In this document: positions 212 through 32,000 of the stretch, in pieces
Numbering within the stretch: the first letter of the stretch is position 1
Layout: each line of letters begins with the position of its first letter
Assembly (NCBI RefSeq): GCF_003097515.1
Contig: NZ_CP029188.1
Location: forward strand, 5,530,531-5,562,530
Direction: 5' to 3'
DNA length: 32,000 nucleotides
From: Streptomyces tirandamycinicus
GTDB lineage: Bacteria > Actinomycetota > Actinomycetes > Streptomycetales > Streptomycetaceae
Translations under genes and position numbers: made by a program
Notes under the pieces: model-generated
Databases searched by the model: none
The model's input: only the letters and a program-made list of their open reading frames with translations
What the model was told of the DNA's origin: nothing

Positions 212-769
212 ATGAATTCCGCGCCCGCTGACCTCGACGCAGTCACTGCGGTGCCCAGCCCGCCCGCCCACGACGCGGTGACCCCCGCGGTGCTGCGATC
301 CGTGATGTCGCGTTTCGCCACCGGAGTCACCGTCATCACCGTGGGCGGGGAACACCTGCACGCGATGACCGCCAACGCCTTCAGCTCGGTGTCCCTGGAA
401 CCGCCCTCGGTGCTGTGCAGTGTGGGGCACAGCGCGGTGATGCACGGGGCGCTGACCTCGGCGGGGCGGTTCGCCGTCAACATACTCGACGTCGACCAGG
501 AGCCGCTGGCCCGGCACTTCGCCGACAAGAAGCGCACCCTGGGCGCCACCCAGTTCGACGGCGTCCCGTGGACGCCGGGCGAGCACACCGGCGCCCCGCT
601 TCTGGGCGGATCGCTGGCCTGGCTGGAATGCGAACTCACCGCCGCGCACGAGTTCGGTGACCACACCATCTTCATCGGCACAGTGGTCGGAGCGGGCCAG
701 TTCACCAAGGGCCATGGACTGCTGTTCGTCGACGGCCGATTCGGTCGCCCCGAGTCGTCCGCGCGCTGA
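212..769 (+). CDS. NAD(P)H:flavin reductase (flavin-reductase-like domain, HpaC/ActVB/SnaC type); probable reductase partner for two-component flavin-dependent oxygenases
   Basis: 185-aa ORF. ATG 212 has GGAG about 9-12 nt upstream; stop TGA 767-769. The translation shows the flavin-reductase-like pattern (RSVMSRFATGVTVIT..HAMTANAFSSVSLEPPSVL..FAVNIL..GDHTIFIGTV). The family call is by recognition. Confidence 0.85.
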   Translation: MNSAPADLDAVTAVPSPPAHDAVTPAVLRSVMSRFATGVTVITVGGEHLHAMTANAFSSVSLEPPSVLCSVGHSAVMHGALTSAGRFAVNILDVDQEPLARHFADKKRTLGATQFDGVPWTPGEHTGAPLLGGSLAWLECELTAAHEFGDHTIFIGTVVGAGQFTKGHGLLFVDGRFGRPESSAR

Positions 770-827
770 AGCGCGGCCCCCGCCGCGGGGCCGGTGAAAA
801 AGCGGCAGGGCGATCCGATGACCCGTT

Positions 828-899
828 CATGACCGTGATGAGATCGCCGAATGCCATGACCGTGAACTGTTCGTTCCCCGCTCCTGCTTTCATGGCCGT
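828..899 (+). repeat. Direct repeats CATGACCGTGA (x2) plus a degenerate third copy, upstream of the imine reductase gene
   Basis: catgaccgtga occurs at 828-838 and 855-865. catggccgt is at 891-899, and a related gatgacccgt is at 818-827. All lie in the 156-nt intergenic region. Confidence 0.5.
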
Positions 900-925
900 T
901 CTGCAAGAGCACCACGGAGTGGGAA

Positions 926-1828
926 ATGGAGTCGTACATGACTGGCAATGGCCGTTCACCGGTGACCGTCATCGGCCTCGGGCTGATGGGCCAGGCGCTG
1001 GCCGCCGCCTTCCTGAAGGGCGGCCACCCGACCACCGTCTGGAACCGGTCCGCCGACAAGGCGACGGATCTGGTGTCCTCGGGAGCCGTGCTCGCCGACA
1101 CCCCGGACGAGGCGGTCTCGGCCGCCGACTTGATCGTCGTCTGCGTGTCGGACGACGACGCGCTGCACGGCGTACTCGACCCGGTGGCCGAGAAGCTGCG
1201 CGGCCGCGTGGTGGCCAACCTGACCTCCGGCTCCTCGGACCAGGCGCGGGCCAACGCCGCGTGGTCCGCCGAGTGGGGCTTCGACTACCTCGACGGCGCC
1301 ATCATGACCGTGCCGGCGGGCGTCGGAGCCCCCGAGTCGGTGTTCTTCTACGCCGGTCCCCAGAAGGCCTACGACCGCCACGCCGAGGCGTTGGCCCTGC
1401 TCGGCGGCGGCACCACCTACCTCGGTGAGGACCACGCCCTGGCCCCGCTGTACGACGTGGCGCTGCTCGGCATGATGTGGGGGACGCTCAACAGCTTCCT
1501 CCAGGGCGCGGCGCTGCTGGCCACGGCGGACGTCAAGGCGTCGGAGTTCCTGCCCTGGGCGATCAAGTGGGTGGACGCCGTCAAGATGTTCGCCACCGAC
1601 TACGCTGGGCAGATCGACGCCGGTGACGGCGCCTATCCCGCTCGGGACGCCACCATGGACGTGCACGCCGGCGCGCTGAAGCACCTGCTGCACGAGAGCG
1701 AGTCCCAGGGCGTCAACGCCGAACTGCCTCGCTTCGTCCAGGGCCTGATGCAGCGCACCATCGCCGCGGGCTTCGGGCAGAACAGCTACGCCAGCATGAT
1801 CGAGCTGTTCCGCGCGCCGGAGAAGTAG
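926..1828 (+). CDS. NADPH-dependent imine reductase (IRED; beta-hydroxyacid-dehydrogenase-like fold)
   Basis: 300-aa ORF. ATG 926 and ATG 938 (MTGNG..) both have GGAG upstream, so the start is ambiguous by 4 codons. Rossmann N-terminus is VTVIGLGLMGQALAAAFLKGGHPTTVWNRS, followed by NLTSGSS, YLDGAIM, LLGGGTTYLG, LYDVALLGMMWGTLNSF, DYAGQIDAGDG and LKHLLHESE. These closely match what I recall of characterised Streptomyces IREDs. Confidence 0.85.
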   Translation: MESYMTGNGRSPVTVIGLGLMGQALAAAFLKGGHPTTVWNRSADKATDLVSSGAVLADTPDEAVSAADLIVVCVSDDDALHGVLDPVAEKLRGRVVANLTSGSSDQARANAAWSAEWGFDYLDGAIMTVPAGVGAPESVFFYAGPQKAYDRHAEALALLGGGTTYLGEDHALAPLYDVALLGMMWGTLNSFLQGAALLATADVKASEFLPWAIKWVDAVKMFATDYAGQIDAGDGAYPARDATMDVHAGALKHLLHESESQGVNAELPRFVQGLMQRTIAAGFGQNSYASMIELFRAPEK

Positions 1829-1851
1829 GCGGGCCGCCACACCGGCCGAGG

Positions 1852-1878
1852 GCCCGGACCGGTACCCCCGGTCCGGGC
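1852..1878 (+). terminator. GC-rich hairpin downstream of the imine reductase gene (candidate intrinsic terminator)
   Basis: Perfect 11-bp stem gcccggaccgg (1852-1862) / ccggtccgggc (1868-1878) with a 5-nt loop taccc, followed by tt. It lies 24 nt after the stop codon, in a convergent intergenic region. Confidence 0.5.
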
Positions 1879-1940
1879 TTCGCGTCGCCCGCACATGCGC
1901 CCGCGCACACGCCCGCGCGCTCTTCCCGCGCACACGACCG

Positions 1941-1984
1941 CGGCGGCCCGTACGGCCCGGTCGTCCGGGGCGTACGGGCCGCCG
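1941..1984 (-). terminator. Long GC hairpin downstream of the minus-strand flavoenzyme gene (candidate terminator)
   Basis: 1941-1954 (cggcggcccgtacg) pairs perfectly with 1971-1984 (cgtacgggccgccg). An inner 5-bp stem cccgg/ccggg (1956-1960 / 1965-1969) follows one mismatch. It lies about 60 nt beyond the stop at 2047. Confidence 0.45.
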
Positions 1985-2046
1985 CCGGCCGGGGGCCGCC
2001 GCACCGGCTCCCGCTCACACAGTGGCCGGTGGGGCGGGCGCGTCCG

Positions 2047-3222
2047 TCACAGGAAGTACGTGCCGGGCTCCAGGCCCATCAGCACGCGGCCCTGCACCTC
2101 CAGGTTGGCGCCCAGCTGCACCAGGGCGTGCAGCGAGAAGCCCTGGATGTCGCGGTGGAAGCGCTGGAGGTCGACATCGGTGCGGATCACCGAGCCGCCG
2201 CTGGCCGCGTACAGCGTCTCGACCGCCTCCTTGGCCAGCTGGCCCGCGTACGCCGTCTGGCCGCGGATGACGGCCTTCTCCTCGTCGGTCGGCTGCTCGC
2301 CCGCGTCGGCCGCCCGCTGGAGCACCTCCAGCCAGCGCTCGGACAGGGCGCGCGCCGCCTCGATCTTGTTGGCGGCGACGGCCAGCTGCTGCTGGGTCGG
2401 CGGGTGCTCGCGCTGGTCCGTCCAGTCCGTGTAGGTGATGCCGCGGCCCGGCACCCGCTCCAGGAACAGCCCGTAGGCGCCCTCGGCGATGCCGACGAGG
2501 GTCGCCGCCACACTGGACAGGATGTAACCGAGCAGCCCGTAGTTGCGCCCGGTCGCCCCGGTGTTGGAGCGGTTGCCGGTCGCGCTGACCATGGCCTCCT
2601 CCAGCGGCACCGTGCGGTGCGCCGGCACGAACAGGTCGGCGGCCTTGACCGTGCAGCTGCCGGTGCCCGCGCCGGACGAGACGTACCAGTCGTCCTCCAC
2701 GGCCAGTTCGGCCGTCGGCACCAGCGCGACCAGCTCCTGGTGCGTGCCGTCGGGCAGCTCCACCAGAGCGGCCAGCAGGTCCCAGTCGGCGCCGCGGACA
2801 CCGGAGTTGTACCGCCAGGTGCCGTCCAGCCGGTAGCCGCCGTCAACCGGCTTGAGGGTGCCGCTGGGCGCGAAGACGATCGACACCCGCGTGGAGCCGG
2901 AGGCGAAGACCTCCTCCTGCGCCCGGTCGGGGTAGAGGCTGACCGCCCACGCACTGGTGAGCCACACCATCGTCAGCCAGCCGGTCGACGGGCAGCCGCG
3001 TGCGACCTCGGAGATGACCCGCGCCTGCTGCGCGGCGTCCAGGTCGAGACCGCCGTACGTCCTGGGCACCGCGGAGCGGAAGACCCCGGCCTTCTCCAGG
3101 ACCTGGACGTTCTCCTCGACGATCCAGCGCCGCTGCTCGCTCTCCTCCCCGTTGCGGCGGAGCACCGGCACGGCGGCGCGCACGCCGTCGAGCACGGAGG
3201 CGAGTTCTTCTTCGGTGGCCAT
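2047..3222 (-). CDS. Acyl-CoA dehydrogenase-fold flavoprotein, likely a flavin-dependent (two-component type) oxygenase/dehydrogenase; paralogue of 30828-32000
   Basis: 391-aa ORF. ATG 3222 is preceded by GAGGAG on the minus strand. It aligns along its whole length with the 30828-32000 product (shared PGRGITYTDW.DQR.HP..QQQ, QR.HRDI.GF..HAL, E.QGRVLMGL.PG.Y.L). The N-terminal and middle regions look ACAD-like (AGVFR..VP...GGL, GYRL.G.W.YNSG). The flavin reductase at 212-769 lies nearby. Confidence 0.8.
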   Translation of the reverse strand: MATEEELASVLDGVRAAVPVLRRNGEESEQRRWIVEENVQVLEKAGVFRSAVPRTYGGLDLDAAQQARVISEVARGCPSTGWLTMVWLTSAWAVSLYPDRAQEEVFASGSTRVSIVFAPSGTLKPVDGGYRLDGTWRYNSGVRGADWDLLAALVELPDGTHQELVALVPTAELAVEDDWYVSSGAGTGSCTVKAADLFVPAHRTVPLEEAMVSATGNRSNTGATGRNYGLLGYILSSVAATLVGIAEGAYGLFLERVPGRGITYTDWTDQREHPPTQQQLAVAANKIEAARALSERWLEVLQRAADAGEQPTDEEKAVIRGQTAYAGQLAKEAVETLYAASGGSVIRTDVDLQRFHRDIQGFSLHALVQLGANLEVQGRVLMGLEPGTYFL

Positions 3223-3378
3223 GGGACTTCTCCTCGTCGCGCGGGATTCAAAAGGTGCGAGTCGCTCTGTGCGTTCACGTTATGCCCGGGAATTCGCGGA
3301 ACGGAAAATCCGTGATCTCACCCCGGTAACGCCTCGAGAACCCGCGGAAGGTGCGCCGAGACCGCTGTGAGGACACTG

Positions 3379-3407: not shown

Positions 3408-3459
3408 GGGCGGTGGGCGGGCTTTTCGGCGGCCCGGTTCCGTCTGGCACTATGAGCCC

Positions 3460-4038
3460 ATGAACGAGCCTTGGGACTCCCTTGTTTCCGCCGCCGCCGA
3501 GGACAGCGCGGCACTTCTCGAGAAATGCGCCGGGGACTGGTCCCGGCCCGCCGGTGAACTGACCTGGAGCTGTACGCAGACCGTCGACCACCTCTCCCAG
3601 GCGGTGTACGGCTACGCGGCGCTGCTGATCGCCCGCCCGACCGACCGCTATGTGGCGCTGCGGGTCGCGATGGACGCGTCGGCGCCCGCCGACGAGATCG
3701 CGGAGAGCGTCAGGATCGGCGGCACCCTGCTCGCCCAGACCGTGCGCACCACGGACCCCGGCGCCTGGGCCTGGCACCCCTGGGGTCCCGGTGACGCGAG
3801 CGCGTTCGCCGCCGCCGGAGCCCTGGAACTCCTGGTGCACAGCCGCGACATCGCCCAGGGCTTCGGCATCGAGGCGGCCCTGGACGGCGAGCTGTGCGCG
3901 CCGGTCGTCGACCGCCTGTTCCCCGAGGCGCCGAGCGGTCAGCGGCCGGCCGACACCCTGCTGTGGTGCGCCGGCCGGATCGCGCTGCCCGGCCTGCCCC
4001 GGCGCACGGACTGGCGCTGGGACGGCACCGCGCGCTGA
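3460..4038 (+). CDS. DinB / mycothiol-dependent maleylpyruvate-isomerase N-terminal domain (MDMPI_N, TIGR03083-like) family protein
   Basis: The ORF-track ORF 3367-4038 starts at GTG. I prefer ATG 3460 (MNEPWDSL..) because the upstream extension translates the 11-bp repeats. The motifs TVDHLSQAVYGY and LELLVHSRDIAQGFG (His ... E..xHxxD) fit the DinB-fold metal-binding pattern of actinobacterial MDMPI-like proteins. No clear Shine-Dalgarno is present, and CACTAT ends 7 nt before the ATG, so the mRNA may be leaderless. Confidence 0.65.
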   Translation: MNEPWDSLVSAAAEDSAALLEKCAGDWSRPAGELTWSCTQTVDHLSQAVYGYAALLIARPTDRYVALRVAMDASAPADEIAESVRIGGTLLAQTVRTTDPGAWAWHPWGPGDASAFAAAGALELLVHSRDIAQGFGIEAALDGELCAPVVDRLFPEAPSGQRPADTLLWCAGRIALPGLPRRTDWRWDGTAR

Positions 4039-4113
4039 CCGGCCGGAGCACGCGCTGCCGGCCGCCGAGCGCTGATCGGCCGCCGCGCGCCGAACCGGCT
4101 GCCGCCGGACACA

Positions 4114-4147
4114 CGGACGCCCCCGGGTCGGGACCCGGGGGCGTCCG
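4114..4147. terminator. Perfect 15-bp GC hairpin between convergent genes (candidate bidirectional terminator)
   Basis: cggacgcccccgggt (4114-4128) / acccgggggcgtccg (4133-4147) with loop cggg. It lies between the stop at 4038 (+) and the stop at 4176 (-). Confidence 0.55.
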
Positions 4148-4175
4148 GTGTCGTATCACCGGCGCGGGTGCTCGG

Positions 4176-4604
4176 TTACTCGGCGGCCACCAGGCCCGTC
4201 GAGGCCACCGGACGGTCGATGGCCATCAGCCAGCGGCCGTCCTCGATGCGGCGCAGCACGTCGGTGCAGACGCCCTCGAGGTGGACCGGCTCGCCGTCCT
4301 TGCCCACGGTGTCGATGCTGTACCGGACGCCGACCAGGGCCACGTCGCCGGCCACGTACGAGTGGGTCAGCTCCGCTTTCAGCGAGGGCTTGGCGGCCAG
4401 GAACTCCTTGAACCAGGCCAGCCGCGCCCCTCCGGTGAGGGGCTCGCCGGAGAAGTTGGAGATGGAGTCCTTGCGGTAGAGGCTGTCGAAGATCGCCCCG
4501 TCGCCGGTGTTGAACGCCTGGAGGAAGACCTCGTTCTGGGTGTCGGGGTCGTCGGTGAGGTCAGGGTTGTTCGGGTCGAAGTCGGTGCTGAAGTTGTAGG
4601 CCAT
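4176..4604 (-). CDS. NTF2-like / SnoaL-like (ketosteroid-isomerase-like, DUF4440-type) small protein; paralogue of 6248-6625
   Basis: 142-aa ORF with ATG at 4602-4604 and stop TAA. It shares a motif pattern with the 6248-6625 product (AFN.GD, G.PLTG.AR, FLA..P, GD.AL, ID.V...G.P.HL.G...DVLR...DG.W..A.D.P). Size and pattern fit an NTF2-fold cone. Confidence 0.7.
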   Translation of the reverse strand: MAYNFSTDFDPNNPDLTDDPDTQNEVFLQAFNTGDGAIFDSLYRKDSISNFSGEPLTGGARLAWFKEFLAAKPSLKAELTHSYVAGDVALVGVRYSIDTVGKDGEPVHLEGVCTDVLRRIEDGRWLMAIDRPVASTGLVAAE

Positions 4605-4660
4605 CGTGAACCGGCCCGCCTCTCTGTGAAGGTGACTGGGACGTGAAGGGACGTGGGGAC

Positions 4661-4704
4661 TCGGCCGCCGGGGGCCGGGAAGACTTCCGCCCCCCGGCGG
4701 CCGA
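4661..4704 (-). terminator. 14-bp GC hairpin downstream of the amine oxidase gene (candidate terminator)
   Basis: tcggccgccggggg (4661-4674) / cccccggcggccga (4691-4704). The 16-nt loop can pair further internally. It lies 11 nt beyond the TAA stop at 4715-4717 on the minus strand. Confidence 0.5.
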
Positions 4705-4714
4705 GGTCGCTCGG

Positions 4715-6145
4715 TTACTCCAGGCCGAGGGTCTGTCGGGCCGCGCGCAGCCCCGACTCGACCGCCCCGTCCAGGAAGCCCGACCAGCCGTTCGCCACGT
4801 CACCGCTCGCGAAGGCGACCCGGCCGCTGGTGTTGTGGATGGACGGGTACAGCGAGGTGAGCTGCCCCGGCTTGCGGAAGGCCCATCCGCCGCGCGCGTA
4901 AGGGTCCCGGCCCCAGTCGTGCGCCCGCACCTCGATGATGTCCAGCTCCGCGCCGAGCTGGCGGACGGCACTGGCGACCTGGGCCTTGTCGGCCGGATCG
5001 AGCGTCGGATCGGTGCTGAACGCGACGTACAGCAGACCCTGGCTCGTCTCCTTGAAGGGCATCAGCATGGGGATCGGCGAACCGCCCTCCGCGCCCTGCG
5101 CGGAGAACTTGCCCGCCCCGGCCTTGGCGTGGATGAACATCTTGTACGCGTTCGGCACCGCGATGCCCTGGGCGCCGGCCGTGGTGTGCGCAGCCGGCAG
5201 CGACGGCGAGAACCTGATGGTGGGCCAGACGTTGACCGGCACGGCCACGACCGCGCGGGTCGCGCTGTAGCGCACCCCCGACTTCAGCGTCACGTACACC
5301 AGCGAACCGGTGTCGGTGACCGACGCGACCGGGGAGTTCAGCCGCAGCACCGGCTTGGCATCCGCCAGCATGGCGTCGAGCAGCCCGGACGTGCCGTTGG
5401 TCATGCGCCAGCGCTGGGTGTCGGCCCAGCCCTGGTTGCTCCAGCCCGCCAGCGACCACCAGTGCGACAGCATGGTGAGCGCGCCCTGCGTGCTGGAGCC
5501 GCCCGAGTAGATCGCCGTCTGCCCGTTGACCAGCAGCTCCTCCTCGGCGGTGAGGCCGAGCTGGTTGAGCCGGTCGCGCAGCGACAGCCGGTCCAGGCTC
5601 TGCAGCAGGTCCGACCGGTACAGCGGCTCGAAGGGGCGCTCGAAGTACTGGCGGGACCCGTCGAAGAGCCTCTCCAGCACCGCGCCCGTGCGGTTGAAGG
5701 CGTCCTCCGGGGTGAACTCCTTCGGACCGGAGGGCGTCGGCAGGAGGACCCGGTCCACCGGGTGCTCCTCGGTCAGGGCGATGTCGTACCGCGTCAGTTC
5801 GGCGGCGATGTGCGGCTGGGTGGTCTCCACCCAGGTGCCGCCCATCTCCACCTGGTGGCCCCCGAAGGTGTCGACGTAGGTGCGGCCGCCGACGCGGCCC
5901 CGCGCCTCCAGGAGCAGTACCCGCTTGCCGCGGGCCCGCAGTTCGCGGGTGGCCGTGATCCCCGCGAATCCCGCTCCGATCACGATGACGTCGTACGGGC
6001 CCCCCTCGGCCGCCCCGGCCGGGCCGGCCGCGAGCACGGGGGCCGCCGCCAGAGCGGCCGTGCCGCCGATCGCCTTGAGCAGAGTCCGGCGCGAAGGACG
6101 CCGCGATGTCGTAGCCTCTGCGCTGGTGTCGTTTAGGTGTCTCAT
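4715..6145 (-). CDS. FAD-dependent amine oxidase (flavin monoamine/polyamine-oxidase family) with N-terminal twin-arginine (Tat) signal peptide
   Basis: The ORF-track start is GTG 6154. ATG 6145 is preferred because GGAAG lies 5-9 nt upstream. The Tat motif is SRRPSRRTLLK, followed by a hydrophobic AIGGTAALAAAPVLAAG stretch and an A-x-A-like GAAE site. The mature protein begins with the dinucleotide-binding YDVIVIGAGFAGITATREL...LLLEARGRVGGR typical of flavin amine oxidases. Confidence 0.85.
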   Translation of the reverse strand: MRHLNDTSAEATTSRRPSRRTLLKAIGGTAALAAAPVLAAGPAGAAEGGPYDVIVIGAGFAGITATRELRARGKRVLLLEARGRVGGRTYVDTFGGHQVEMGGTWVETTQPHIAAELTRYDIALTEEHPVDRVLLPTPSGPKEFTPEDAFNRTGAVLERLFDGSRQYFERPFEPLYRSDLLQSLDRLSLRDRLNQLGLTAEEELLVNGQTAIYSGGSSTQGALTMLSHWWSLAGWSNQGWADTQRWRMTNGTSGLLDAMLADAKPVLRLNSPVASVTDTGSLVYVTLKSGVRYSATRAVVAVPVNVWPTIRFSPSLPAAHTTAGAQGIAVPNAYKMFIHAKAGAGKFSAQGAEGGSPIPMLMPFKETSQGLLYVAFSTDPTLDPADKAQVASAVRQLGAELDIIEVRAHDWGRDPYARGGWAFRKPGQLTSLYPSIHNTSGRVAFASGDVANGWSGFLDGAVESGLRAARQTLGLE

Positions 6146-6247
6146 GTCTTCCACAGGGATGTTTGGTGCACGTCTGACGACGGCCCGACGGATGGGATGC
6201 GGGAAGCGGGAGGACGGCGAGAGGCGGGGAGGGCCGTCCGGGCCGGA

Positions 6248-6625
6248 CTACTTCTGGCCGTACGGGTCGTCGACGGCGTAGCGCCAGATGCCGTCCTCGC
6301 CGAGCCGCAGCACGTCCACACCGGTGCCCGTCAGGTGCTCCGGCTTGCCCTCGTCGTCGACCGAGTCGATCTCCCAGTCGACGATCAGCAGCGCCGTGTC
6401 CCCGGTGACGAAGATCTGCCGGGTCTTGGTGCTGATCTTCGGGCCGCGGGCCAGGAACGCCCGCTGGTATTCCCGGCGCGCGTCACCGGTCAGCGGCTTG
6501 CCCGGCTCCCAGACCGCGACGGCCTCGTCCGTGTAAAAGAAGTCCATGGCTTCGAAGTCACCGCGGTTGAACGCGTCGACATATTGCGCGGTGTGCTTTT
6601 CCACGGTCTCGTGCAGCTGTGACAT
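6248..6625 (-). CDS. NTF2-like / SnoaL-like small protein; paralogue of 4176-4604
   Basis: 125-aa ORF with ATG at 6623-6625. It contains YVDAFNRGDFEAM, GKPLTGDAR, GDTALLIVDWEIDSV and DVLRLGEDGIWRYAVDDP, which is the same motif skeleton as the 4176-4604 product. Confidence 0.7.
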   Translation of the reverse strand: MSQLHETVEKHTAQYVDAFNRGDFEAMDFFYTDEAVAVWEPGKPLTGDARREYQRAFLARGPKISTKTRQIFVTGDTALLIVDWEIDSVDDEGKPEHLTGTGVDVLRLGEDGIWRYAVDDPYGQK

Positions 6626-6750: not shown

Positions 6751-6865
6751 CGTTCGAGATTGCCTGCTGAGGGGTGGGAGAGAATGCGCTGGCTATGATC
6801 GGCCCACAGGTTTCGGCATCTGATCGGAAGTCTTGGTAATTCGGCCGGAAAGGCAGTCGGGCGCG

Positions 6866-9800
6866 ATGACGAATCAGCAGAACGTGGAAACAACCGTGAC
6901 GGGTCGGAGCGAGGGCGAGGCGATCGCGGTCGTCGGTCTGTCCTGCCGCCTGCCGGGCGCGGACGGGCCCGAGGCGTTCTGGGAGCTGCTGCGCACCGGC
7001 TCGGACGCCATCACCCCGGTCCCGGAGGACCGCTGGCGCTCCGCGATCGGCGAGGAGACGCCCGAGGACACCGTCCCCGGCATGCGCCGCGGCGGCTTCC
7101 TCGACCGGGTCGACAACTTCGACGCCGCGTTCTTCGGGGTCGCCCCCCGTGAGGCCGTCACCATGGACCCGCAGCAGCGGCTGGTGCTGGAACTCGCCTG
7201 GGAGGCCCTGGAGCACGCCGGCATCGTGCCCGCCGCCCTGCGCGGCAGCCGCACCGCCGTGTTCGTCGGCACCCTGCGCGACGACTACGCCGCCCTGCTC
7301 TACCAGCACGGCGCCGCCGCGGTCACCCAGCACACCATGGCCGGCGTCAACCGGGGCGTCATCGCCAACCGGGTCTCCTACCACCTCGGCCTGAACGGCC
7401 CCAGCCTCACCGTCGACTCCGCCCAGTCGTCGTCCCTGCTGGCCGTGCACCTGGCCTGCGAGTCGCTGCGCAGCGGCGAATCCGACGCGGCGATCGTCGC
7501 CGGTGTCAACCTCAACCTCCTCGCCGAGGGTGCCGTCACCCAGGAGCGCTTCGGCGGCCTGTCGCCCGACGGCACCACCTACACCTTCGACGCCCGCGCC
7601 AACGGGTTCGTCCGCGGCGAGGGCGGCGCCGCCGTCGTGCTCAAGCCGCTGTCCCGCGCGCTCGCCGACGGCGACCCCGTCCTCGGCGTCATCCGGGGCA
7701 GCGCGGTGAACAACGACGGCGCCACCCCCGGCCTCACCGTCCCCGGACAGGCCTCGCAGGAGCGGGTGCTGCGCGAGGCGTACGCGCGGGCCGGGGTCGA
7801 CCCCGCCGCCGTGCAGTACGTCGAACTCCACGGCACCGGCACCCCGGTCGGCGACCCGATCGAGGCCGCCGCGCTCGGTGCGGTACTCGGCGCCGCCCGC
7901 CCCGGCGACCGGCCGCTGCGTGTCGGCTCGGTGAAGACCAACGTCGGTCACCTGGAGGGCGCTGCGGGCATCACCGGCCTGGTGAAGACCCTGCTCGCGC
8001 TCTCCCGACGCACCCTGCCGCCGAGCCTGAACTTCGCGACCGAGAACCCCGCCATCCCCCTCGCCGACCTGGGCCTGCGCGTGCAGCGCGAGCTGACCGG
8101 CTGGCCCGCGCCAGACCAGCCGCTGATCGCCGGCGTCTCCTCCTTCGGCATGGGCGGCACCAACGCCCACGTGGTGCTGGAGGGGGCACCGGGCACGACC
8201 GGGACGACGCCGGGCGCGCAGGCGCCGGGCACTGCTGAGGTGCCGGACACGGCGGGGGTGTCCAGCGCTGCCGAGGTGCCGGGCGGCGCGGTGGAAGACG
8301 GCGCTCTGCTGCCCTGGATCGTCACCGCCCGCGGCGAGGACGCCCTGCGGGCGCAGGCCGGCCGGTTGCGGGAGGCCGTCGCGGACGGCACCGCGCGCCC
8401 CGCGGATGTCGGCTTCTCCCTCGCCGCCACCCGCACCGTCTTCACCCACCGCGCCGTCGTTCTCGCCGACGACCGCGACGGCATGCTGGCCGGCCTGGAC
8501 GCGCTGGCCGTCGGCACGCCCGCCCGGGACGTCGTCACCGGCGTCGCCCGTCCCGGCCGCACCGCCCTGCTGTTCACCGGGCAGGGCGCGCAGCGCATCG
8601 CCATGGGCCGCGAACTGCGCGCCGCCTTCCCCGCGTTCGCCGCCGCCTTCGACGAGGTGTGCGCGCACTTCGCGCCGCTGCTGGACCGCCCGCTCGCCGA
8701 GGTCGTCGACTCCGGCGAGGGACTGGACGACACCGGCTACACCCAGCCCGCGCTGTTCGCCGTCGAGGTGGCCCTGCACCGGCTGGTGGCCGGCTGGGGC
8801 GTGCGCGCCGACCTGGTCGCCGGGCACTCCATCGGCGAGATCGCCGCCGCGCACGTCGCCGGGGTGCTTTCCCTGAAGGACGCGGCGCAGCTGGTCGCCG
8901 CGCGCGGCCGGCTGATGCAGGCGCTGCCCGAAGGCGGCGCCATGGTCGCCGTCCAGGCCGCCGAGGACGAGGTGCTGCCGCTGCTCGCCGGCCTCGAGGA
9001 CGAGGTCGCGATCGCCGCCGTCAACGGCCCCCGCTCGGTGGTGATCTCCGGCGTCGCCGAGCAGGTCACCCGGATCGCGGACCGGCTCGCCGCCGAGGGT
9101 CGCCGGACTCGCCGGCTGACCGTCTCGCACGCCTTCCACTCGCCGCTGATGGTGCCCATGCTCGACGAGTTCCGCCGCTTCGCCGAGCGGCTGACCTTCC
9201 ACGAGCCGCGCGTGTCCGCCGTGTCCACCGTCACCGGACAGGCGGTCCTGCCCGGCGAGTGGACCTCGCCCGACTACTGGGTGGAGCAGGTCCGACGCCC
9301 CGTGCGCTTCCTGGACGCCGTCCGTACCCTGGAGGCCGCGGGCGCCACCACCCTGCTGGAGATCGGCCCCGACGCGGTCTGCGCCACGATGGCCGCCGAC
9401 TGCCTGGAGGACACCGCCGCCGCCGCACCGATCGCCGCGCTGCGCGCCGGCCGCCCCGAGCCGCGCACCCTGCTCACCGCGCTCGCCGGCGCGTTCGCCC
9501 GCGGCACCGACGTGGACTGGACCGCCGTCCACGCCCCGGCCGCCGGCCGCCGCGTCCCGCTGCCCACCTACGCCTTCCAGCGGGAGCGCTACTGGATCGG
9601 CGGCCCGGCCCGTGCCGCCGCCGCGCTGCCCGCCCCCACCGAACAGCCCGCCCCCGCCGCCCGGCCCGCACGCCGCCCGGCCGCCGGCACCGACACCACC
9701 GCCGTCGTACTCGACCGCATCGCGGCCGTCCTGGAGTACGGCCCGGAGCGCCGCGTCGAGCTGCACGCCACCTTCAAGGACCTCGGCCTGGACTCGCTGA

Positions 9801-20747: not shown

Positions 20748-23700
20748 ATGGCGGGCGAGGACAAGCTCCGCGACTATCTCAAGAAGGCCGTCGCCGATGC
20801 CCGTGAGGCGCGCCGACAGCTGCGGGAGATCGAGGAACGGCGCCACGAGCCGATCGCGATCGTCGGCATGGCCTGCCGCTACCCGAACGGGGTCGGCTCG
20901 CCGGAGGACCTCTGGCGCCTGGTCGTCGACGGCACGGACGCGGTCACCGCGTTCCCGGAGAACCGCGGCTGGGACCTGGACTCCCTGTACGACCCGGACC
21001 CGGAGCGCACCGGCACCTCCTACGGCCGCGAGGGCGGCTTCCTGCACGACGCCGACCGCTTCGACCCCGAGTTCTTCGGCATGTCGCCGCGCGAGGCCGT
21101 CGCCATCGACCCCCAGCAGCGCCTGCTGCTGGAGGCCGCCTGGGAGGGCTTCGAGGACGCCGGCCTCGACCCCACCGGCCTGCGCGGCTCGCGCACCGGC
21201 GTGTTCACCGGCCTGATGTACAGCGACTACGGCTCCCGGCCGCACCTGCCCCCGGAGGACTTCGAGGGCTACCTGTTCAGCGGCAGCGCGGGCAGCATCG
21301 CCGCCGGCCGGCTGTCGTACACCTACGGCTTCGAGGGCCCGGCCGTCTCCGTCGACACCGCCTGCTCCTCCTCCCTGGTCGCCCTGCACCTGGCGGCGAA
21401 CGCCCTGCGCAACGGCGAGTGCGACCTCGCGCTGGCCGGCGGTGTCACCGTGATGTCCACGCCGGTCGCCTTCGTGGAGTTCTCCCGTCTGCGGGGCCTG
21501 GCCCCCGACGGTCGCTGCAAGTCCTTCGGCGCGGGCGCGGACGGCGTCGGCTGGTCGGAGGGTGTGGGCCTGCTCGTCGTGGAGCGGCTGTCGGACGCTC
21601 GCCGCAACGGGCACCGGGTGCTCGCGGTGCTGCGCGGCAGCGCGGTGAACCAGGACGGTGCGAGCAACGGACTGACCGCGCCGAACGGTCCCTCGCAGGA
21701 GCGGGTGATCCGGCAGGCGCTGGCCGACGCGCGGCTGGCCCCGGCGGATGTGGATGTCGTCGAGGCGCACGGCACCGGCACCCGGTTGGGCGACCCGATC
21801 GAGGCGCAGGCGCTGCTGGCCACGTACGGCCAGGAGCGTGAAGAGCCGTTGTACCTGGGCTCGTTGAAGTCCAACATCGGGCACGCGCAGGCCGCCGCCG
21901 GTGTCGGCGGGGTGATCAAGATGGTGCAGGCGATGCGGCATGGGCTGATGCCGCGCACCCTGCACGTGGAGGAGCCCACGCCGATGGTCGACTGGGAGGC
22001 GGGCGCCGTCGAGTTGCTGACCGAGGAGCGGGAGTGGCCGCGCGGCGAACGGCCGCGCCGGGCCGCCGTCTCCTCCTTCGGCTTCGGCGGTACCAACGCC
22101 CACGTCATCATCGAGGAGGCGCCCGCCCAGGCGGTCGCGCACACCGACGGCACCGGGGCCGCCCCGGCGCCCGTACGGCTCCCCGTGCTGCCGTGGCTGC
22201 TGTCCGGCCGTACGCCCCAGGCCGTCGCGGCGCAGGCGGAGCGGCTGCTCGACCACGTCGAGCGGCACCCCGACCTGGACCCGCAGGACGTCGCCTACAC
22301 CCTCGCCACCGCCCGCGCCGCCCTCGACCACCGCGCGGTGGCCGTCGGCGCCGACCGCGACGCGCTCCTCGCCGATCTGCGCGCCCTCGACACCCTCACC
22401 GCGTCCTCCGCGTCGGGCACTGGCGCGTTGGGTTTTGTGTTCTCGGGTCAGGGTGCGCAGCGGGTGGGGATGGGGCGTGAGTTGGCTGCGTCGTATCCGG
22501 TGTTCGCGTCGGTGTTGGGTGAGGTGTGCGGGGTGCTGGATCCGTTGTTGGGTGGGTCGTTGCGGGAGGTGATGTTCGAGGAGGACGGTTCGGGGCGTTT
22601 GGATCGGACGGGGTGGGCGCAGCCGGCGTTGTTCGCGTTCGAGGTGGCGTTGTTCCGTCTGGTGGAGTCGTGGGGTGTGGTTCCGTCGGTGGTGGCGGGT
22701 CATTCGGTGGGGGAGTTGGCGGCGGCGCATGCGGTGGGTGTGTTGTCGTTGGCGGATGCCTGCCGGGTGGTGGCTGCTCGGGCGGGGTTGATGGAGGCGC
22801 TGCCGGGGGGTGGTGTGATGGTGGCGGTGGAGGCGTCGGAGGCGGAGGTGGCTCCGCTGCTCGTGGGCCGGGAGGCCGAGTTGGGTGTCGCGGCCGTCAA
22901 CGGGCCTACGGCTGTGGTGATCTCCGGCGACGAGGCGGCGGTGGAGGAGGTGGCGGCCCGGTTCGCCGGGGCCGGTCGCCGGGTGCGGCGGCTGTCGGTG
23001 TCGCATGCGTTCCACTCGCCGCGTATGGAGGGGATGCTGGAGGAGTTCCGCACGGTTCTGAAGGGCGTCGAGTTCCAGGCCCCGCGGATCCCGGTCGTCT
23101 CCACGCTGACCGGTCGTCTCGCCGCCGGTGAGGATCTGCGTTCCGCCGACTACTGGGTACGGCAGGTGCGCGAGGCCGTGCGGTACGCCGACGCGGTCAC
23201 CGCGATGGAGCGGCAGGGCGTCCGCACCTACGCGGAGATCGGCCCCGGCGGAGCGCTCGCCGCCCTCGCCGCGCAGTCCGTCCACGACGCCGACGCCACC
23301 GTCGTCACCGCCCTCGTCCGGGCCGGCGTGCCCGAGCCGCAGTCCCTGGTCCGGGCCCTCGGCCTGCTGCACGGACGGGGCGCGCGCGTGGACTGGGAGG
23401 CGTTCTACGCCGGTTCCGGCGCCCGCCGGGTCCCCCTGCCGACGTACGCCTTCCAGCACCAGCGCTACTGGCTGGACCAGCTCGTGCCGGCCGACGGCGG
23501 CACGGCCCGCGTGCCCGCGCAGCGGACCGCCCAGCCGGAGGCGGCGGAGCCCGAGGGCGTACCGCTGCCCGAGCGGCTCGCCGAACTGGCCGTCGCCCAG
23601 CGCGAGCAGTACGTGCTGCAGATCGTCACCAACCTCGTCGCGAGCGTCCTCAAGCACGGCGACCCGTCCGGGATCTCCCCCGACCGGCCCTTCCGGGACC

Positions 23701-24098
23701 TCGGGTTCGACTCCCTCACCGGCGTCGAGCTGCGCAACCGGCTGGCCAGGGAGACCGGCCTGACCCTGCCCGCCACCGTGGTCTTCGACCACCCCAACCC
23801 GGGCGCCCTCGCCGCCTTCGTACTCGACGCGGCCGGCCCGGCACCCGACGAGCCCTCCCGCGCCGTCCGGGACGGACTGGACCGGTTGGAGGCGTCGCTC
23901 GACGCGCTGCCCGCCGACGGCGACACCCGCGCCGAGGTCGAGGCCCGGCTGCGCGGCCTTCTGGAACGGCTGTCCGGCAGCACGCCCGCCGCCGACCCGG
24001 CGTCCGGCGACCCGGCCGTGCAGGAGCTGATCGCGTCCGCGTCCGCCTACGAGATCTTCGACTTCATCGACACCCAGCTCGGCCGGGCGGCGGACTGA
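20748..24098 (+). CDS. Modular type I polyketide synthase 2: single non-reducing extension module 3, KS-AT-ACP, with N- and C-terminal docking regions
   Basis: 1116-aa ORF. ATG 20748 has GGGAG about 12 nt upstream. The N-terminal coiled-coil docking region is [27 protein letters not shown] is about 20844-22120 (Cys codon 21363). AT is about 22425-23475 (GHSVGE Ser codon 22704; HAFH 23004-23015). ACP is about 23610-23830 ([11 protein letters not shown], Ser codon 23712). There is no DH/KR/ER between AT and ACP. Confidence 0.95.
22399..23247 (+). repeat. Copy A of a ~849-nt near-identical direct repeat (AT domain of module 3)
   Basis: Colinear with 25915-26763 at a constant offset of 3516 nt. 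By eye I find only 3 mismatches (23087, 23135, 23212). The off-frame ORFs 22526-23131 and 26042-26647 in the track translate almost identically. Confidence 0.95.
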
Positions 24099-24106: not shown

Positions 24107-24131
24107 GGGGCCGCCCGGCATGGGCGGCCCC
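24107..24131 (+). other. Perfect 10-bp stem-loop between PKS gene 2 and PKS gene 3
   Basis: ggggccgccc (24107-24116) / gggcggcccc (24122-24131) with loop ggcat. It begins 9 nt after the stop at 24098. Confidence 0.4.
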
Positions 24132-24185
24132 GCCCCACCGTCGCACCTGCCCTGTCCCGGCGTTCAAGGAGAGGCTTTCCTTCGC

Positions 24186-30749
<6,564 letters not shown>

Positions 30750-30772
30750 TCGGCCGCCCCGAGTGGGGCGAC

Positions 30773-30800
30773 GGCCGCCGCCCCAGTCGGGGCGGCGGCC
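30773..30800. terminator. Perfect 12-bp GC hairpin between the convergent PKS 3 and flavoenzyme genes (candidate bidirectional terminator)
   Basis: ggccgccgcccc (30773-30784) / ggggcggcggcc (30789-30800) with loop agtc. A smaller hairpin cgcccc/ggggcg at 30755-30770 sits just upstream. Confidence 0.55.
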
Positions 30801-30827
30801 GCCGCCCCGCGCCGTGCGACGAATGCC

Positions 30828-32000
30828 TCAGAGGATGTACGAGCCCGGGGCGAGCCCCATCAGGACGCGGCCCTGCATCTCCAGATTCGGCAGCGGATGC
30901 GCCAGGGCGTGCTGGGTGAAGCCCAGGATGTCCCGGTGGTAGCGCTGGATGGGCACGCTGCGCTTGAGCACCGAGGCGCCGCTGAGCGAATACAGCAGCT
31001 GGACGGCCTCCTTGGCCAGGTCCCCGGCGAACGCGGTCCGCCCGCGGACCTGAGCCTTCTCCGCGTCGGTGGGCCGCTCACCGGCGTCGGCGCGCTCCTG
31101 GAGCAGCGCGATCACCCGGTCGGTCAGCGCGGCGCCGGCCTCGATCCGGTTGGCCGCGGCCGCCACCTGCTGCTGGACCAGCGGGTGCCGGCGCTGGTCG
31201 TCCCAGTCGGTGTAGGTGATCCCGCGCCCGGGCAGCCGCTCGAAGAACAGTTCCAGGGCGCCGCGGGCGAGACCGAGGGCCATGCTCGCGTACAGCGACA
31301 TGATGAACGCGACTGCGCCGTACCCCCGCCCCGGCACCTGCGCGTTCCACCGCTCACCGGTCTCCCCGGTCAGCGACGCGTCGTACCCGATGAGCCGGTG
31401 GGCGGGCACGAAGACGTCCTCGGCGACCGTGGTAGCGCTCCCAGTGCCGCTTCCCGCCGAGACGTCCCAGTCGTCGACGATGGACAGTTCCGTCAGCGGT
31501 ACGAGGGCGAAGAACTCCTCCTCGGTCCCGTCCGGCCGCTCCAGCACCGCGCCCAGCACGTCCCAGTCGGCGGCGTGGCAGCCGGAGTTGTAGCCCCAGC
31601 GCCCGCTGAGCCGGTAGCCTCCCTCGACCGGGGTCAGCCGGCCGGTCGTCGCGAAGCCCAGCGACACCCGCACCGAGCCCCCGTCGAAGACCTCCTTCTG
31701 CGCCTTGTCCGGGTACAGGCCGGCGATCAGCGCCCCGGTGAGCCAGACCGTCATGTTCCAGCCGGTGGCCGGACAGGCCCCGGCGATCCGGCCCACGACC
31801 TCCGCCTGCCGCTCGAGGGAAAGATCCAGACCACCGAACCGTTCGGGCACGGCCATACGGAACACTCCGGCCCGGTCCAGGCGCCGCAGCGTCTCCCGCG
31901 GCACCCGCCCCTGCCTCTCCGCCTCGATGCCGTGTTCCCGGATCACCGGCACGGCTTCGCGGACGGCAGCCAACACCTCGGCCGAATCCTGAATTGACAC
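30828..32000 (-). CDS. Acyl-CoA dehydrogenase-fold flavoprotein, paralogue of 2047-3222 (N-terminus at or just beyond the window edge)
   Basis: 390-aa reading frame ending in TGA at 30828-30830. It begins with GTG exactly at 32000, and alignment with the paralogue's N-terminus (..VLAAVREAVPVIRE.. versus ..VLDGVRAAVPVLRR..) suggests the true start is at or within a few codons of the edge. It is similar to the 2047-3222 product along its whole length. Confidence 0.8.
   Translation of the reverse strand: MSIQDSAEVLAAVREAVPVIREHGIEAERQGRVPRETLRRLDRAGVFRMAVPERFGGLDLSLERQAEVVGRIAGACPATGWNMTVWLTGALIAGLYPDKAQKEVFDGGSVRVSLGFATTGRLTPVEGGYRLSGRWGYNSGCHAADWDVLGAVLERPDGTEEEFFALVPLTELSIVDDWDVSAGSGTGSATTVAEDVFVPAHRLIGYDASLTGETGERWNAQVPGRGYGAVAFIMSLYASMALGLARGALELFFERLPGRGITYTDWDDQRRHPLVQQQVAAAANRIEAGAALTDRVIALLQERADAGERPTDAEKAQVRGRTAFAGDLAKEAVQLLYSLSGASVLKRSVPIQRYHRDILGFTQHALAHPLPNLEMQGRVLMGLAPGSYIL

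What the first reader, a model, noticed from the sequence alone, without database searches (positions are those of the whole stretch)
212..32000. Reductive-release pentaketide synthase with imine reductase, exported amine oxidase and flavoenzymes: candidate polyketide-alkaloid (2-alkenyl piperidine/pyridine type) gene cluster
Seen in sequence: the three PKS genes encode, in order, KSQ-AT-ACP / KS-AT-DH-KR-ACP / KS-AT-DH-KR-ACP // KS-AT-ACP // KS-AT-DH*-KR-ACP-R. All five ATs carry GHS[IV]GE...HAFH and ..TQPALFA / WAQPALFA malonyl-type signatures. There is no ER or MT domain and no TE. Established knowledge: terminal thioester-reductase domains release an aldehyde. In actinomycete polyketide-alkaloid pathways (coelimycin, cyclizidine, streptazone, argimycin P) that aldehyde is transaminated and the amine cyclises onto a chain carbonyl. 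Inference: colinear processing gives an unbranched C10 chain, 3-hydroxy-5-oxodeca-6,8-dienal, or the 2-ene if DH* is active. Amination at C1 would place N in a 1,5 relationship to the ketone retained by the reduction-less module 3. That is set up for a six-membered cyclic imine with a pentadienyl side chain, which is the substrate class of the imine reductase at 926-1828. The amine oxidase and ACAD-fold flavoenzymes could aromatise or oxygenate the ring. The skeleton would resemble 2-pentadienyl-piperidine/pyridine (streptopyridine-like) metabolites, or a relative one module shorter than nigrifactin/argimycin-type pathways. I cannot tell from sequence alone whether this exact cluster is already described. 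No aminotransferase, regulator or transporter is in the window, so the cluster must continue beyond an edge.
Basis: partly seen in the sequence, partly recalled or inferred. Interest (0 to 1): 0.75.

Follow-up and report, generated by a model that had tools for sequence, protein, structure and literature searches.

The report
Streptomyces C10 polyketide-alkaloid gene cluster
The window is the core of a Streptomyces gene cluster that builds a ten-carbon polyketide, releases it as an aldehyde, adds nitrogen and closes a piperidine ring; it is a correctly read but ordinary member of the known argimycin/streptazone/streptazolin cluster family.

Summary
Three co-linear PKS genes encode KSQ-AT-ACP, two KS-AT-DH-KR-ACP modules, one KS-AT-ACP module, and KS-AT-DH(dead)-KR-ACP-R. 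All five ATs are malonyl-type and all KRs are B-type. There is no ER, MT or TE.

The predicted aminotransferase exists. Its first 11-12 codons lie at window 1-35 (minus strand), and the full gene is seen in 99%-identical strains. Regulators and a type II thioesterase lie beyond the left edge. A transporter and more regulators lie beyond the right edge in the nearest relative.

With them, the tailoring genes match, family for family, the experimentally dissected argimycin P (arp) cluster. That set is aminotransferase, imine reductase, ACAD-fold flavin monooxygenase plus flavin reductase, a SnoaL-like cyclase pair and an amine oxidase.

The PKS is one module shorter than arp/stz. C10 clusters with these cyclases were already predicted to make latumcidin/streptazolin (Awodi 2016), and one was assigned to a streptazolin producer (Klumbys 2024). 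The source species is Streptomyces tirandamycinicus or a close relative, whose genome paper lists a 'streptazone E' cluster.

The likely end products are bicyclic C10 cyclopenta[b]pyridine alkaloids. This is a new member of a known kind, of low interest.

The parts
1..35 (-). First 11-12 codons (MAQSVLMDTNNS) of the class III (omega) aminotransferase gene. The rest lies beyond the left edge.
   Evidence: The reverse complement of window 1-35 equals the N-terminus of the 533-539 aa Aminotran_3 genes of L001-L003.
212..769 (+). Flavin reductase, same family as ArpK. It would supply reduced flavin to the ACAD-fold monooxygenases.
   Evidence: PF01613, E 1e-40. ArpK role from PMC5820336.
926..1828 (+). 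NADPH-dependent imine reductase, same family as ArpDHII. It would reduce the cyclic imine (piperideine) to the piperidine.
   Evidence: RedAm-like_C, E 1e-42. PDB 5ocm and 3zgy, E 1e-104 and 5e-94. ArpDHII shown to be an imine reductase.
2047..3222 (-). ACAD-fold two-component flavin monooxygenase, same family as ArpDHI. Candidate ring epoxidase or hydroxylase.
   Evidence: Acyl-CoA_dh_2, E 3e-24. Best PDB relatives are HsaA, HpaH-C2 and XiaF, E 1e-40 to 1e-43.
3460..4038 (+). DinB/MDMPI_N-like protein of unknown role. The longest ORF starts at 3367; related strains call the start at the Met at 3460.
   Evidence: PF11716, E 4e-8. Called as 192 aa in L001-L004.
4176..4604 (-). SnoaL-like (NTF2-fold) protein 1, a candidate cyclase of the ArpHI/ArpHII/StzE/StzF kind.
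   Evidence: SnoaL_2 and DUF4440. 112 homologues in actinomycetes. Their 90% clusters include S. abikoensis, S. chartreusis and S. osmaniensis.
4715..6154 (-). Tat-exported flavin amine oxidase, same family as ArpO. It would oxidise the cyclic amine to an imine or pyridine.
   Evidence: PF01593, E 8e-44. Twin-arginine signal SRRTLLK. Best PDB relatives are annotated amine oxidases (5ttj/7kho, E 1e-73), 6-hydroxynicotine oxidases and MAO-N.
6248..6625 (-). SnoaL-like protein 2, the second candidate cyclase. It is 40% identical to SnoaL-like protein 1.
   Evidence: SnoaL_2, E 7e-13. Pairwise blastp 40%, E 1e-25.
6833..20644 (+). PKS1: KSQ-AT-ACP loading module, module 1 (KS-AT-DH-KR-ACP) and module 2 (KS-AT-DH-KR-ACP). 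The probable start is the Met at 6866.
   Evidence: Pfam. Motifs: DSAQSS 7415-7432; DTACSS 10478 and 15683; GHSIGE three times; HAFH three times; DH His at 12770 and 17948; KR LDD twice; ACP GxDS three times.
20748..24098 (+). PKS2: module 3, docking-KS-AT-ACP with no reductive domains, so the beta-ketone is kept.
   Evidence: Pfam. Motifs. Single-module orthologues of 1073-1124 aa at 70-73% identity in S. chartreusis, S. iakyrus, S. massasporeus, S. turgidiscabies and S. sedi.
24120..30749 (+). PKS3: module 4, docking-KS-AT-DH(inactive)-KR-ACP, followed by the terminal thioester reductase. The true start is possibly the Met at 24186.
   Evidence: Pfam. DH His replaced by Arg at 27141-27170. 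KR LDD at 28719. ACP at 29394.
29661..30374 (+). Terminal thioester reductase (R/TR) domain, which releases the chain as an aldehyde.
   Evidence: NAD_binding_4, E 4e-72, residues 1848-2085. TGASGFLG and YLRSK present and conserved in eight orthologues.
30828..32000 (-). Second ACAD-fold two-component flavin monooxygenase, 56% identical to the one at 2047-3222.
   Evidence: Acyl-CoA_dh_2, E 7e-22. Orthologues at 68-95% identity in 11 Streptomyces species, always next to PKS3 where the contig continues.

Best explanation
The window is the core of an arp/stz-type actinobacterial polyketide-alkaloid cluster of the pentaketide (C10) subtype, from Streptomyces tirandamycinicus or a very close relative.

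Shown from sequence:
- A KSQ loading module and four malonyl-specific extension modules are present.
- Modules 1 and 2 reduce and dehydrate, giving a diene.
- Module 3 keeps the ketone.
- Module 4 gives a B-type 3-hydroxyl, because its DH lacks the catalytic His.
- A terminal reductase domain replaces a thioesterase.

Inferred by co-linearity and from the biochemistry of CpkC-TR/CpkG and ArpN:
1. The chain is released as 3-hydroxy-5-oxodeca-6,8-dienal.
2. The aminotransferase encoded at the left edge aminates C1.
3. The amine condenses with the C5 ketone to give 4-hydroxy-2-(penta-1,3-dienyl)-1-piperideine.

Inferred by family-level analogy with the arp knockouts:
4. The imine reductase makes the piperidine.
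5. After loss of water, an ACAD-fold flavin monooxygenase, fed by the flavin reductase, epoxidises the ring.
6. The two SnoaL-like proteins open the epoxide with C-C bond formation, giving a fused five-membered ring.
7. The Tat-exported amine oxidase re-oxidises the cyclic amine to an imine or pyridine.

The expected products are C10 cyclopenta[b]pyridine alkaloids of the streptazone/abikoviromycin(latumcidin)/streptazolin family. The 2-pentadienyl-piperidines, streptopyridines and nitrogen-free streptenols would be intermediates or shunt products. The exact end product cannot be told from sequence.
For: - Domain and motif map.
- Aminotransferase, two SARP regulators, type II thioesterase and FMN reductase immediately left of the window in four 99%-identical strains.
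- HxlR regulator, MFS transporter, a third ACAD-fold gene, NmrA-like and PNPOx-like genes and a large SARP to the right in the nearest relative, L005.
- The arp cluster holds the same enzyme families. Knockouts there assign ArpN (amination), ArpDHII (imine reduction, shown by bioconversion), ArpDHI (needed before five-ring formation, proposed to form the epoxide), ArpHI/HII (five-ring cyclisation; mutants accumulate epoxides) and ArpO/ArpK (oxidation towards pyridine): PMC5300972 and PMC5820336.
- ArpPI, PII and PIII are 4625, 3575 and 2203 aa, against 4603, 1116 and 2209 aa here. PKS2 is therefore one module instead of two.
- Awodi et al. predicted that C10 clusters with StzE/F homologues make latumcidin or streptazolin: PMC5365063.
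- The streptazolin producer Streptomyces sp. A4420 carries a 'streptazone E-like cluster lacking a single module': PMC11127301 supplement.
- Single-module PKS2 orthologues occur in S. chartreusis. Locus L016 there has PKS genes of 4562, 1100 and 2186 aa.
- About 30 further 90% clusters match the AT-ACP end of PKS2.
- The 90% clusters of SnoaL-like protein 1 include S. abikoensis, S. chartreusis and S. osmaniensis. Strains of the latter two species produce streptazolin.
- Labelled acetate shows five acetate units in streptopyridines, which co-occur with streptazolin: PMC4077424.
- The genome paper of S. tirandamycinicus HNM0039 lists a streptazone E-type cluster: PMC6424883. SnoaL-like protein 1 is 100% identical to the protein of that species.
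Against: - No Arp or Stz protein sequence could be aligned directly. Correspondence rests on shared Pfam families, gene content and a published antiSMASH match that could not be placed at these coordinates.
- No metabolite of this family is reported from S. tirandamycinicus.
- The streptazolin assignment in strain A4420 is itself by inference. No loss-of-production data were seen in the text read.
- The cluster holds genes absent from arp: two extra ACAD-fold monooxygenases and DinB-like, NmrA-like and PNPOx-like genes. Their roles are unknown and they could divert the pathway.
- The right flank was read in a relative whose ACAD protein is 95% identical (L005), not in the source genome.
- AT specificity and KR stereochemistry are called from motifs only.
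Confidence: 0.78

Rival explanations
1. One reading: the end products are monocyclic 2-pentadienyl piperidines or pyridines (streptopyridine-like). The amine oxidase and flavoenzymes would only aromatise or oxygenate the six-membered ring.
For: The PKS chain, the aminotransferase and the imine reductase suffice for 4-hydroxy-2-(1,3-pentadienyl)piperidine. In arp, the PKS plus ArpN alone give nigrifactin. Monocyclic C10 piperidines and streptopyridines are real products of streptazolin strains. ArpO is linked to pyridine formation.
Against: Two SnoaL-like genes sit inside the cluster next to PKS1 and are conserved across the family. An ArpDHI-family monooxygenase and a flavin reductase are also present. 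In arp these genes are required for the bicyclic products, and the monocyclic compounds there are side-pathway products.
Confidence: 0.17
2. The cluster makes nitrogen-free pentaketides such as streptenol-type 1,3-diol-5-ones, or it is silent or decayed in this strain. The dead DH would then be one sign of decay.
For: Streptenols have the oxidation pattern expected if the released aldehyde is reduced rather than aminated. The module 4 DH has lost its catalytic His. No product is reported for this species.
Against: All 11 genes are intact with high GC3. All essential KS, AT, KR, ACP and R motifs are present. The aminotransferase is intact in sister strains. The equivalent DH is also inactive in the functional arp PKS. 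DNA is 99% conserved over the window parts covered (up to about 10.8 kb) in four strains.
Confidence: 0.05

Closest known systems
Argimycin P (arp) cluster of Streptomyces argillaceus (Ye et al. 2017 and 2018; PMC5300972, PMC5820336)
   Same: Three PKS proteins with a KSQ loading module, all-malonyl ATs, diene/triene-forming early modules, a retained ketone, a 3-hydroxyl from a final module with an inactive DH, and terminal TR release. The cluster also has an aminotransferase, an imine reductase, an ACAD-fold monooxygenase, a flavin reductase, two SnoaL-like cyclases, an amine-oxidase-like dehydrogenase, a type II thioesterase and a SARP regulator. PKS1 and PKS3 have nearly the same lengths (4625/2203 aa against 4603/2209 aa).
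   Different: arp has five extension modules (C12). Its ArpPII is bimodular (3575 aa), and module 4 carries inactive DH and KR domains. Here PKS2 is a single KS-AT-ACP module (1116 aa), giving C10. This cluster has three ACAD-fold paralogues instead of one, plus DinB-like, NmrA-like and PNPOx-like genes. Gene order differs. Direct sequence identity to Arp proteins was not measured.
Streptazone E (stz) cluster of Streptomyces sp. MSC090213JE08 (Ohno et al. 2015, as cited in PMC5300972 and PMC5365063)
   Same: A TR-terminated PKS, a transaminase, and the StzE/StzF cyclases that form the five-membered ring. The S. tirandamycinicus genome paper lists a streptazone E-type cluster.
   Different: The streptazone E carbon skeleton corresponds to the nigrifactin C12 chain. 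The window's PKS is one module shorter. The stz paper itself could not be read here.
Predicted latumcidin/streptazolin-type C10 clusters: Streptomyces sp. NRRL B-24891 (Awodi et al. 2016) and the 'stl' cluster of the streptazolin producer Streptomyces sp. A4420 (Klumbys et al. 2024)
   Same: The descriptions match the window: a streptazone E-like cluster lacking one module, with a transaminase, a TR domain and StzE/F-type cyclases.
   Different: The sequences of those clusters were not available for comparison. The product assignment there is also by inference. Whether this cluster makes streptazolin, abikoviromycin, streptazones or another congener is open.
Coelimycin P1 (cpk) cluster of Streptomyces coelicolor
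   Same: The TR domain and the CpkG omega-transaminase provide the biochemically proven logic of reductive release followed by transamination. It also uses SARP regulation.
   Different: From my own knowledge, not checked here: cpk is a hexaketide cluster, has no imine reductase and no SnoaL-like cyclase pair, uses different secreted flavoenzymes, and gives a different ring system.

Membership tests
Actinobacterial polyketide-alkaloid clusters (criterion of Awodi et al. 2016) | Type I modular PKS ending in a thioester reductase domain instead of a thioesterase | tested here: met
   NAD_binding_4, E 4e-72, at PKS3 residues 1848-2085, with TGASGFLG and YLRSK. No thioesterase family hits any PKS protein.
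Actinobacterial polyketide-alkaloid clusters (criterion of Awodi et al. 2016) | CpkG-like class III aminotransferase within 35 kb of the PKS | tested here: met
   An Aminotran_3 gene of 533-539 aa lies directly left of the flavin reductase gene in L001-L004. Its start codons are at window 1-35 on the minus strand. It is about 31 kb from the R domain.
arp/stz-type (cyclopenta[b]pyridine-forming) subfamily | Pair of SnoaL-like (NTF2-fold) cyclases of the ArpHI/HII or StzE/F kind | tested here: inconclusive
   Two SnoaL_2/DUF4440 genes lie at 4176-4604 and 6248-6625. They sit next to PKS1 in every related locus read around SnoaL-like protein 1. No Arp or Stz sequence was available to measure identity, and cyclase activity is not testable here.
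arp/stz-type (cyclopenta[b]pyridine-forming) subfamily | Imine reductase, ACAD-fold flavin monooxygenase with flavin reductase, and amine-oxidase-like dehydrogenase | tested here: met
   Pfam and PDB matches, compared with the arp gene table and knockouts. The match is at the level of protein families.
arp/stz-type, hexaketide (C12: nigrifactin, argimycin P, streptazone E) | Loading module plus five extension modules, with a bimodular second PKS protein | tested here: not met
   PKS2 is a single KS-AT-ACP module of 1116 aa. There are four extension modules in total, against ArpPII at 3575 aa.
Pentaketide (C10) subtype: streptazolin/abikoviromycin/streptazone A-D/streptopyridine chemistry | Loading module plus four malonyl extensions, giving an unbranched C10 chain with 3-OH, 5-oxo and a 6,8-diene | tested here: met
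   Domain string and AT/KR/DH motifs. The same three-protein architecture occurs in S. chartreusis, S. sedi and S. physcomitrii.
Pentaketide (C10) subtype: streptazolin/abikoviromycin/streptazone A-D/streptopyridine chemistry | Production of a named member of that compound family by the host | not testable with these tools
   No metabolite data exist for this cluster. The only links are at species level, through S. chartreusis, S. osmaniensis and S. abikoensis homologues.

The most novel reading that the evidence does not exclude
The most novel reading not excluded concerns the genes that arp lacks. These are two further ACAD-fold flavin monooxygenases (three in all), a DinB-like protein, an NmrA-like reductase and a PNPOx-like protein. 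They might make this lineage's cluster produce an undescribed, more highly oxygenated C10 cyclopenta[b]pyridine alkaloid. Alternatively they might encode steps of this compound family for which no enzyme assignment was found in the papers read, such as the retained epoxide of abikoviromycin or the carbamate ring of streptazolin.
Probability: 0.3. Interest if true: 0.45.

Novelty: new member of a known kind. Interest (0 to 1): 0.25.

Why it matters
The finding shows that raw-sequence reading can reconstruct a PKS domain string and correctly predict a flanking aminotransferase.

Biologically the cluster belongs to a family that is already described and widespread in Streptomyces. About 30 protein clusters (at 90% identity) match the AT-ACP end of the single-module PKS2 over its full length. 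The pathway logic has been worked out genetically in the arp system.

The remaining value is modest.
- No paper found in the library searched links a C10 cluster of this type to its product by knockout or expression. Streptazolin, abikoviromycin and the streptazones are old bioactive alkaloids.
- A well-assembled example in a culturable marine strain could serve for that assignment.
- It could also help assign roles to the extra flavoenzymes.

Tried and rejected
- Plus-strand ORFs at 2029-3315, 3894-4646, 4643-6136, 6137-6622 and 30897-31997 gave no Pfam hits. They are shadow ORFs of minus-strand genes in this high-GC DNA, so GC3 filtering was used instead.
- Exact-protein look-ups failed for the right-hand ACAD protein, for PKS3 and for P0001. 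The right flank of the source genome could therefore not be read, and the relative L005, whose ACAD protein is 95% identical, was used.
- The full-length PKS2 search was swamped by unrelated PKS modules. A second search with only the AT-ACP end was more specific but returned mostly contig-end fragments.
- I tried to find the accession numbers of Arp-like proteins (the WP_0303467xx series in Table 3 of PMC5300972) among cluster members. None turned up, so no direct percent identity to Arp or Stz proteins is reported.
- Literature searches found no open-access paper that experimentally defines a streptazolin or abikoviromycin cluster. The Awodi supplement is not held.
- A coelimycin-type identity was considered and rejected. 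The module count differs, and the window holds an imine reductase and a SnoaL-like pair, which to my knowledge cpk lacks.
- A bldA (TTA codon) regulatory link was checked. None of the 11 genes has a TTA codon.
- The locus from S. machairae (L020) is fragmented by frameshifts and was used only for gene content.

Full report
**1. What is in the window**

The DNA has 70-79% G+C, so raw ORF lists are full of shadow frames. Filtering ORFs by third-position GC leaves 11 genes.

On the plus strand:
- a flavin reductase (212-769; PF01613, E 1e-40);
- an imine reductase (926-1828; RedAm-like_C, E 1e-42);
- a DinB/MDMPI_N-like protein (3367 or 3460 to 4038);
- three PKS genes (6833-20644, 20748-24098, 24120-30749).

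On the minus strand:
- two ACAD-fold proteins (2047-3222 and 30828-32000; Acyl-CoA_dh_2);
- a flavin amine oxidase (4715-6154; E 8e-44);

**2. The PKS**

- The loading KS has Gln in the active site (VDSAQSS).
- The four extension KS domains have the Cys-His-His set.
- All five ATs carry GHS[IV]GE and HAFH, the malonyl signature.
- The DH domains of modules 1 and 2 are complete.
- PKS2 is docking-KS-AT-ACP with nothing between AT and ACP.
- The module 4 DH has Arg where the catalytic His should be, Thr for the motif Pro, and no LPFxW.
- All three KRs have the LDD (B-type) motif and the catalytic Tyr.
- The C-terminal domain is an NAD_binding_4 reductase (E 4e-72) with TGASGFLG and YLRSK.
- No ER, methyltransferase or thioesterase family hits the PKS proteins.

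Co-linear reading gives 3-hydroxy-5-oxodeca-6,8-dienoyl-ACP, released as the aldehyde.

**3. The flanks**

An exact look-up of the flavin reductase protein returned four genomes or assemblies. Their DNA is 98.8-99.8% identical to the part of the window each covers, up to about 10.8 kb.

In all four, a class III aminotransferase of 533-539 aa is transcribed divergently from the flavin reductase gene. The reverse complement of window 1-35 encodes its first residues, MAQSVLMDTNNS. Further left lie two SARP-type regulators, a type II thioesterase, an FMN reductase and a two-component system.

For the right side I used the ACAD-fold protein at 30828-32000 to fetch loci from 11 Streptomyces species. 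In the closest locus (L005, protein 95% identical) the genes beyond the window edge are an HxlR regulator, an MFS transporter, a third ACAD-fold gene, an NmrA-like reductase, a PNPOx-like protein and a large SARP. This set, in whole or in large part, recurs in L007, L012, L013 and L015.

Its decisive test, an aminotransferase nearby, is passed.

**4. What the accessory enzymes are**

- The ACAD-fold proteins are closest to the oxygenase components of two-component flavin monooxygenases (HsaA, the C2 component of p-hydroxyphenylacetate hydroxylase, XiaF; E 1e-40 to 1e-43). They are not close to acyl-CoA dehydrogenases. This fits the adjacent flavin reductase.
- The best solved relatives of the amine oxidase are entries annotated simply as amine oxidases (5ttj, 7kho; E about 1e-73), followed by 6-hydroxynicotine oxidases and MAO-N. 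To my knowledge 5ttj is the nicotine oxidoreductase NicA2. These enzymes oxidise cyclic amines.
- The N-terminus of the amine oxidase has a twin-arginine motif, a hydrophobic stretch and an AxA site. 'Exported' is therefore a fair reading. No signal-peptide predictor was run.
- The imine reductase matches solved imine reductases at E 1e-104.

**5. Comparison with characterised systems**

The argimycin P cluster of S. argillaceus contains ArpN (aminotransferase), ArpDHII (imine reductase), ArpDHI (ACAD-like), ArpK (flavin reductase), ArpHI and ArpHII (SnoaL-like), ArpO (amine-oxidase-like), ArpT (type II thioesterase) and a SARP. Its PKS proteins are 4625, 3575 and 2203 aa.

Knockouts and feeding experiments there show the following.
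- The PKS plus ArpN suffice for the piperideine nigrifactin.
- ArpDHII reduces the imine.
- ArpDHI acts before five-membered-ring formation and is proposed to form the epoxide.
- arpHI and arpHII mutants accumulate epoxides and lack all bicyclic products.
- ArpO and ArpK are needed for the pyridine-type end products.

The window has one or more members of every one of these families. Its PKS1 and PKS3 are of matching size. Its PKS2 has one module (1116 aa) where ArpPII has two.

The functional pattern at the carboxyl end is the same in both systems: 3-OH, 5-oxo, and an inactive final DH. The chain is therefore the arp chain minus one vinyl unit.

**6. The C10 subtype is already in the literature**

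- Awodi et al. found 22 TR-plus-transaminase clusters. They proposed that two of them, with C10 chains and StzE/F homologues, make latumcidin (abikoviromycin), streptazolin or a relative.
- Klumbys et al. annotated the cluster of the streptazolin producer Streptomyces sp. [quoted passage not shown]
- Labelling shows that streptazolin and the streptopyridines are pentaketides. 2-Pentadienylpiperidines, streptazones and streptenols co-occur with streptazolin.

**7. Distribution and source**

SnoaL-like protein 1 is 100% identical to a protein of Streptomyces tirandamycinicus. The best DNA match, at 99.8%, is Streptomyces sp. ICN441. The genome paper of S. tirandamycinicus HNM0039 lists a streptazone E-type cluster from antiSMASH, with no experiments.

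Single-module PKS2 orthologues of 1073-1124 aa at 70-73% identity occur in S. chartreusis, S. iakyrus, S. massasporeus, S. turgidiscabies, S. sedi and others. The S. chartreusis locus has PKS proteins of 4562, 1100 and 2186 aa. S. sedi also has a complete single-module PKS2, and in S. physcomitrii the PKS2 ORF runs almost to the end of the fetched locus.

A search with only the AT-ACP end of PKS2 finds about 30 protein clusters with full-length matches. These include S. luteogriseus, S. collinus and S. diastatochromogenes. Similarity then drops sharply.

The 90% clusters of SnoaL-like protein 1 include S. abikoensis, S. chartreusis and S. osmaniensis. To my knowledge S. abikoensis is the species from which abikoviromycin was named. 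Strains of S. chartreusis and S. osmaniensis make streptazolin and streptazones. These are species-level associations, not proof.

**8. Conclusion and limits**

The class call rests on direct sequence evidence plus the biochemistry established for CpkC-TR/CpkG and the arp genes. That call is a reductive-release pentaketide synthase followed by transamination, cyclisation and imine reduction.

The step from monocyclic to bicyclic product is inferred from the presence of the SnoaL-like pair and the ArpDHI-family monooxygenase. I could not align Arp or Stz sequences directly.

The exact end product is open. So are the roles of the extra ACAD-fold paralogues and of the DinB-like, NmrA-like and PNPOx-like genes.

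The finding is a correct and careful read of an ordinary member of a known cluster family.

Noticed in passing
window about 22550-23270 (PKS2 AT) and about 26070-26790 (PKS3 AT): The AT domains of modules 3 and 4 are essentially 100% identical in protein over about 240 residues. The flanking KS and linker regions are only 50-80% identical. DNA identity is 86% over the 2.6 kb KS-AT region. This looks like gene conversion between neighbouring modules.
   Followed up: partly
window 27141-27170; L016, L010, L015, L005, L006, L008, L013: The catalytic His of the module 4 DH is Arg in the window, L005, L008 and L013, and is deleted in S. physcomitrii. It is retained in S. chartreusis, S. sedi and L006; the first two keep the full HxxxGxxxxP motif. 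The DH region is only 48-62% identical to the more distant orthologues (82-86% to the two closest, L005 and L006), against 68-75% for whole PKS3 in the distant ones. This suggests relaxed constraint on the domain across the family.
   Followed up: partly
P0209 and P0212 (Streptomyces sp. NBC_00872, S. scopuliridis): A sister variant of PKS2 carries a KR (KS-AT-KR-ACP; 1562-1582 aa; 71-73% identical). S. scopuliridis also has SnoaL-like protein 1 homologues at 75-76% identity. This would give a 5-hydroxyl instead of the 5-ketone needed for imine closure.
   Followed up: no
window 1959-1976 and 4669-4755, compared with L001: Between the window and the 99%-identical strain L001, the IRED-ACAD intergenic region differs by an insertion of about 100 bp in L001. 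The alignment also breaks near the SnoaL-like protein 1 / amine oxidase junction. These are small strain-level indels in intergenic DNA.
   Followed up: no
L017-L019 (S. luteoverticillatus / S. abikoensis group): The SnoaL-AmOx-SnoaL triad stays next to PKS1. It is followed directly by an HxlR regulator, a SARP, the aminotransferase and a type II thioesterase. No imine reductase, ACAD-fold or flavin reductase gene lies on that side, so the tailoring gene order is rearranged between lineages.
   Followed up: no
window, all 11 genes: No gene has a TTA codon, so the structural genes show no bldA-dependent translational control.
   Followed up: yes
L020 (Streptomyces sp. MS1.AVA.1 / S. machairae, 9.3 Mb contig): The homologous cluster appears broken into gene fragments. 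The amine oxidase is split into pieces of 252 and 411 aa, there are KS fragments of 93 and 171 aa, and one ACAD-fold gene is truncated. This is probably frameshift error in a long-read assembly rather than real decay.
   Followed up: no
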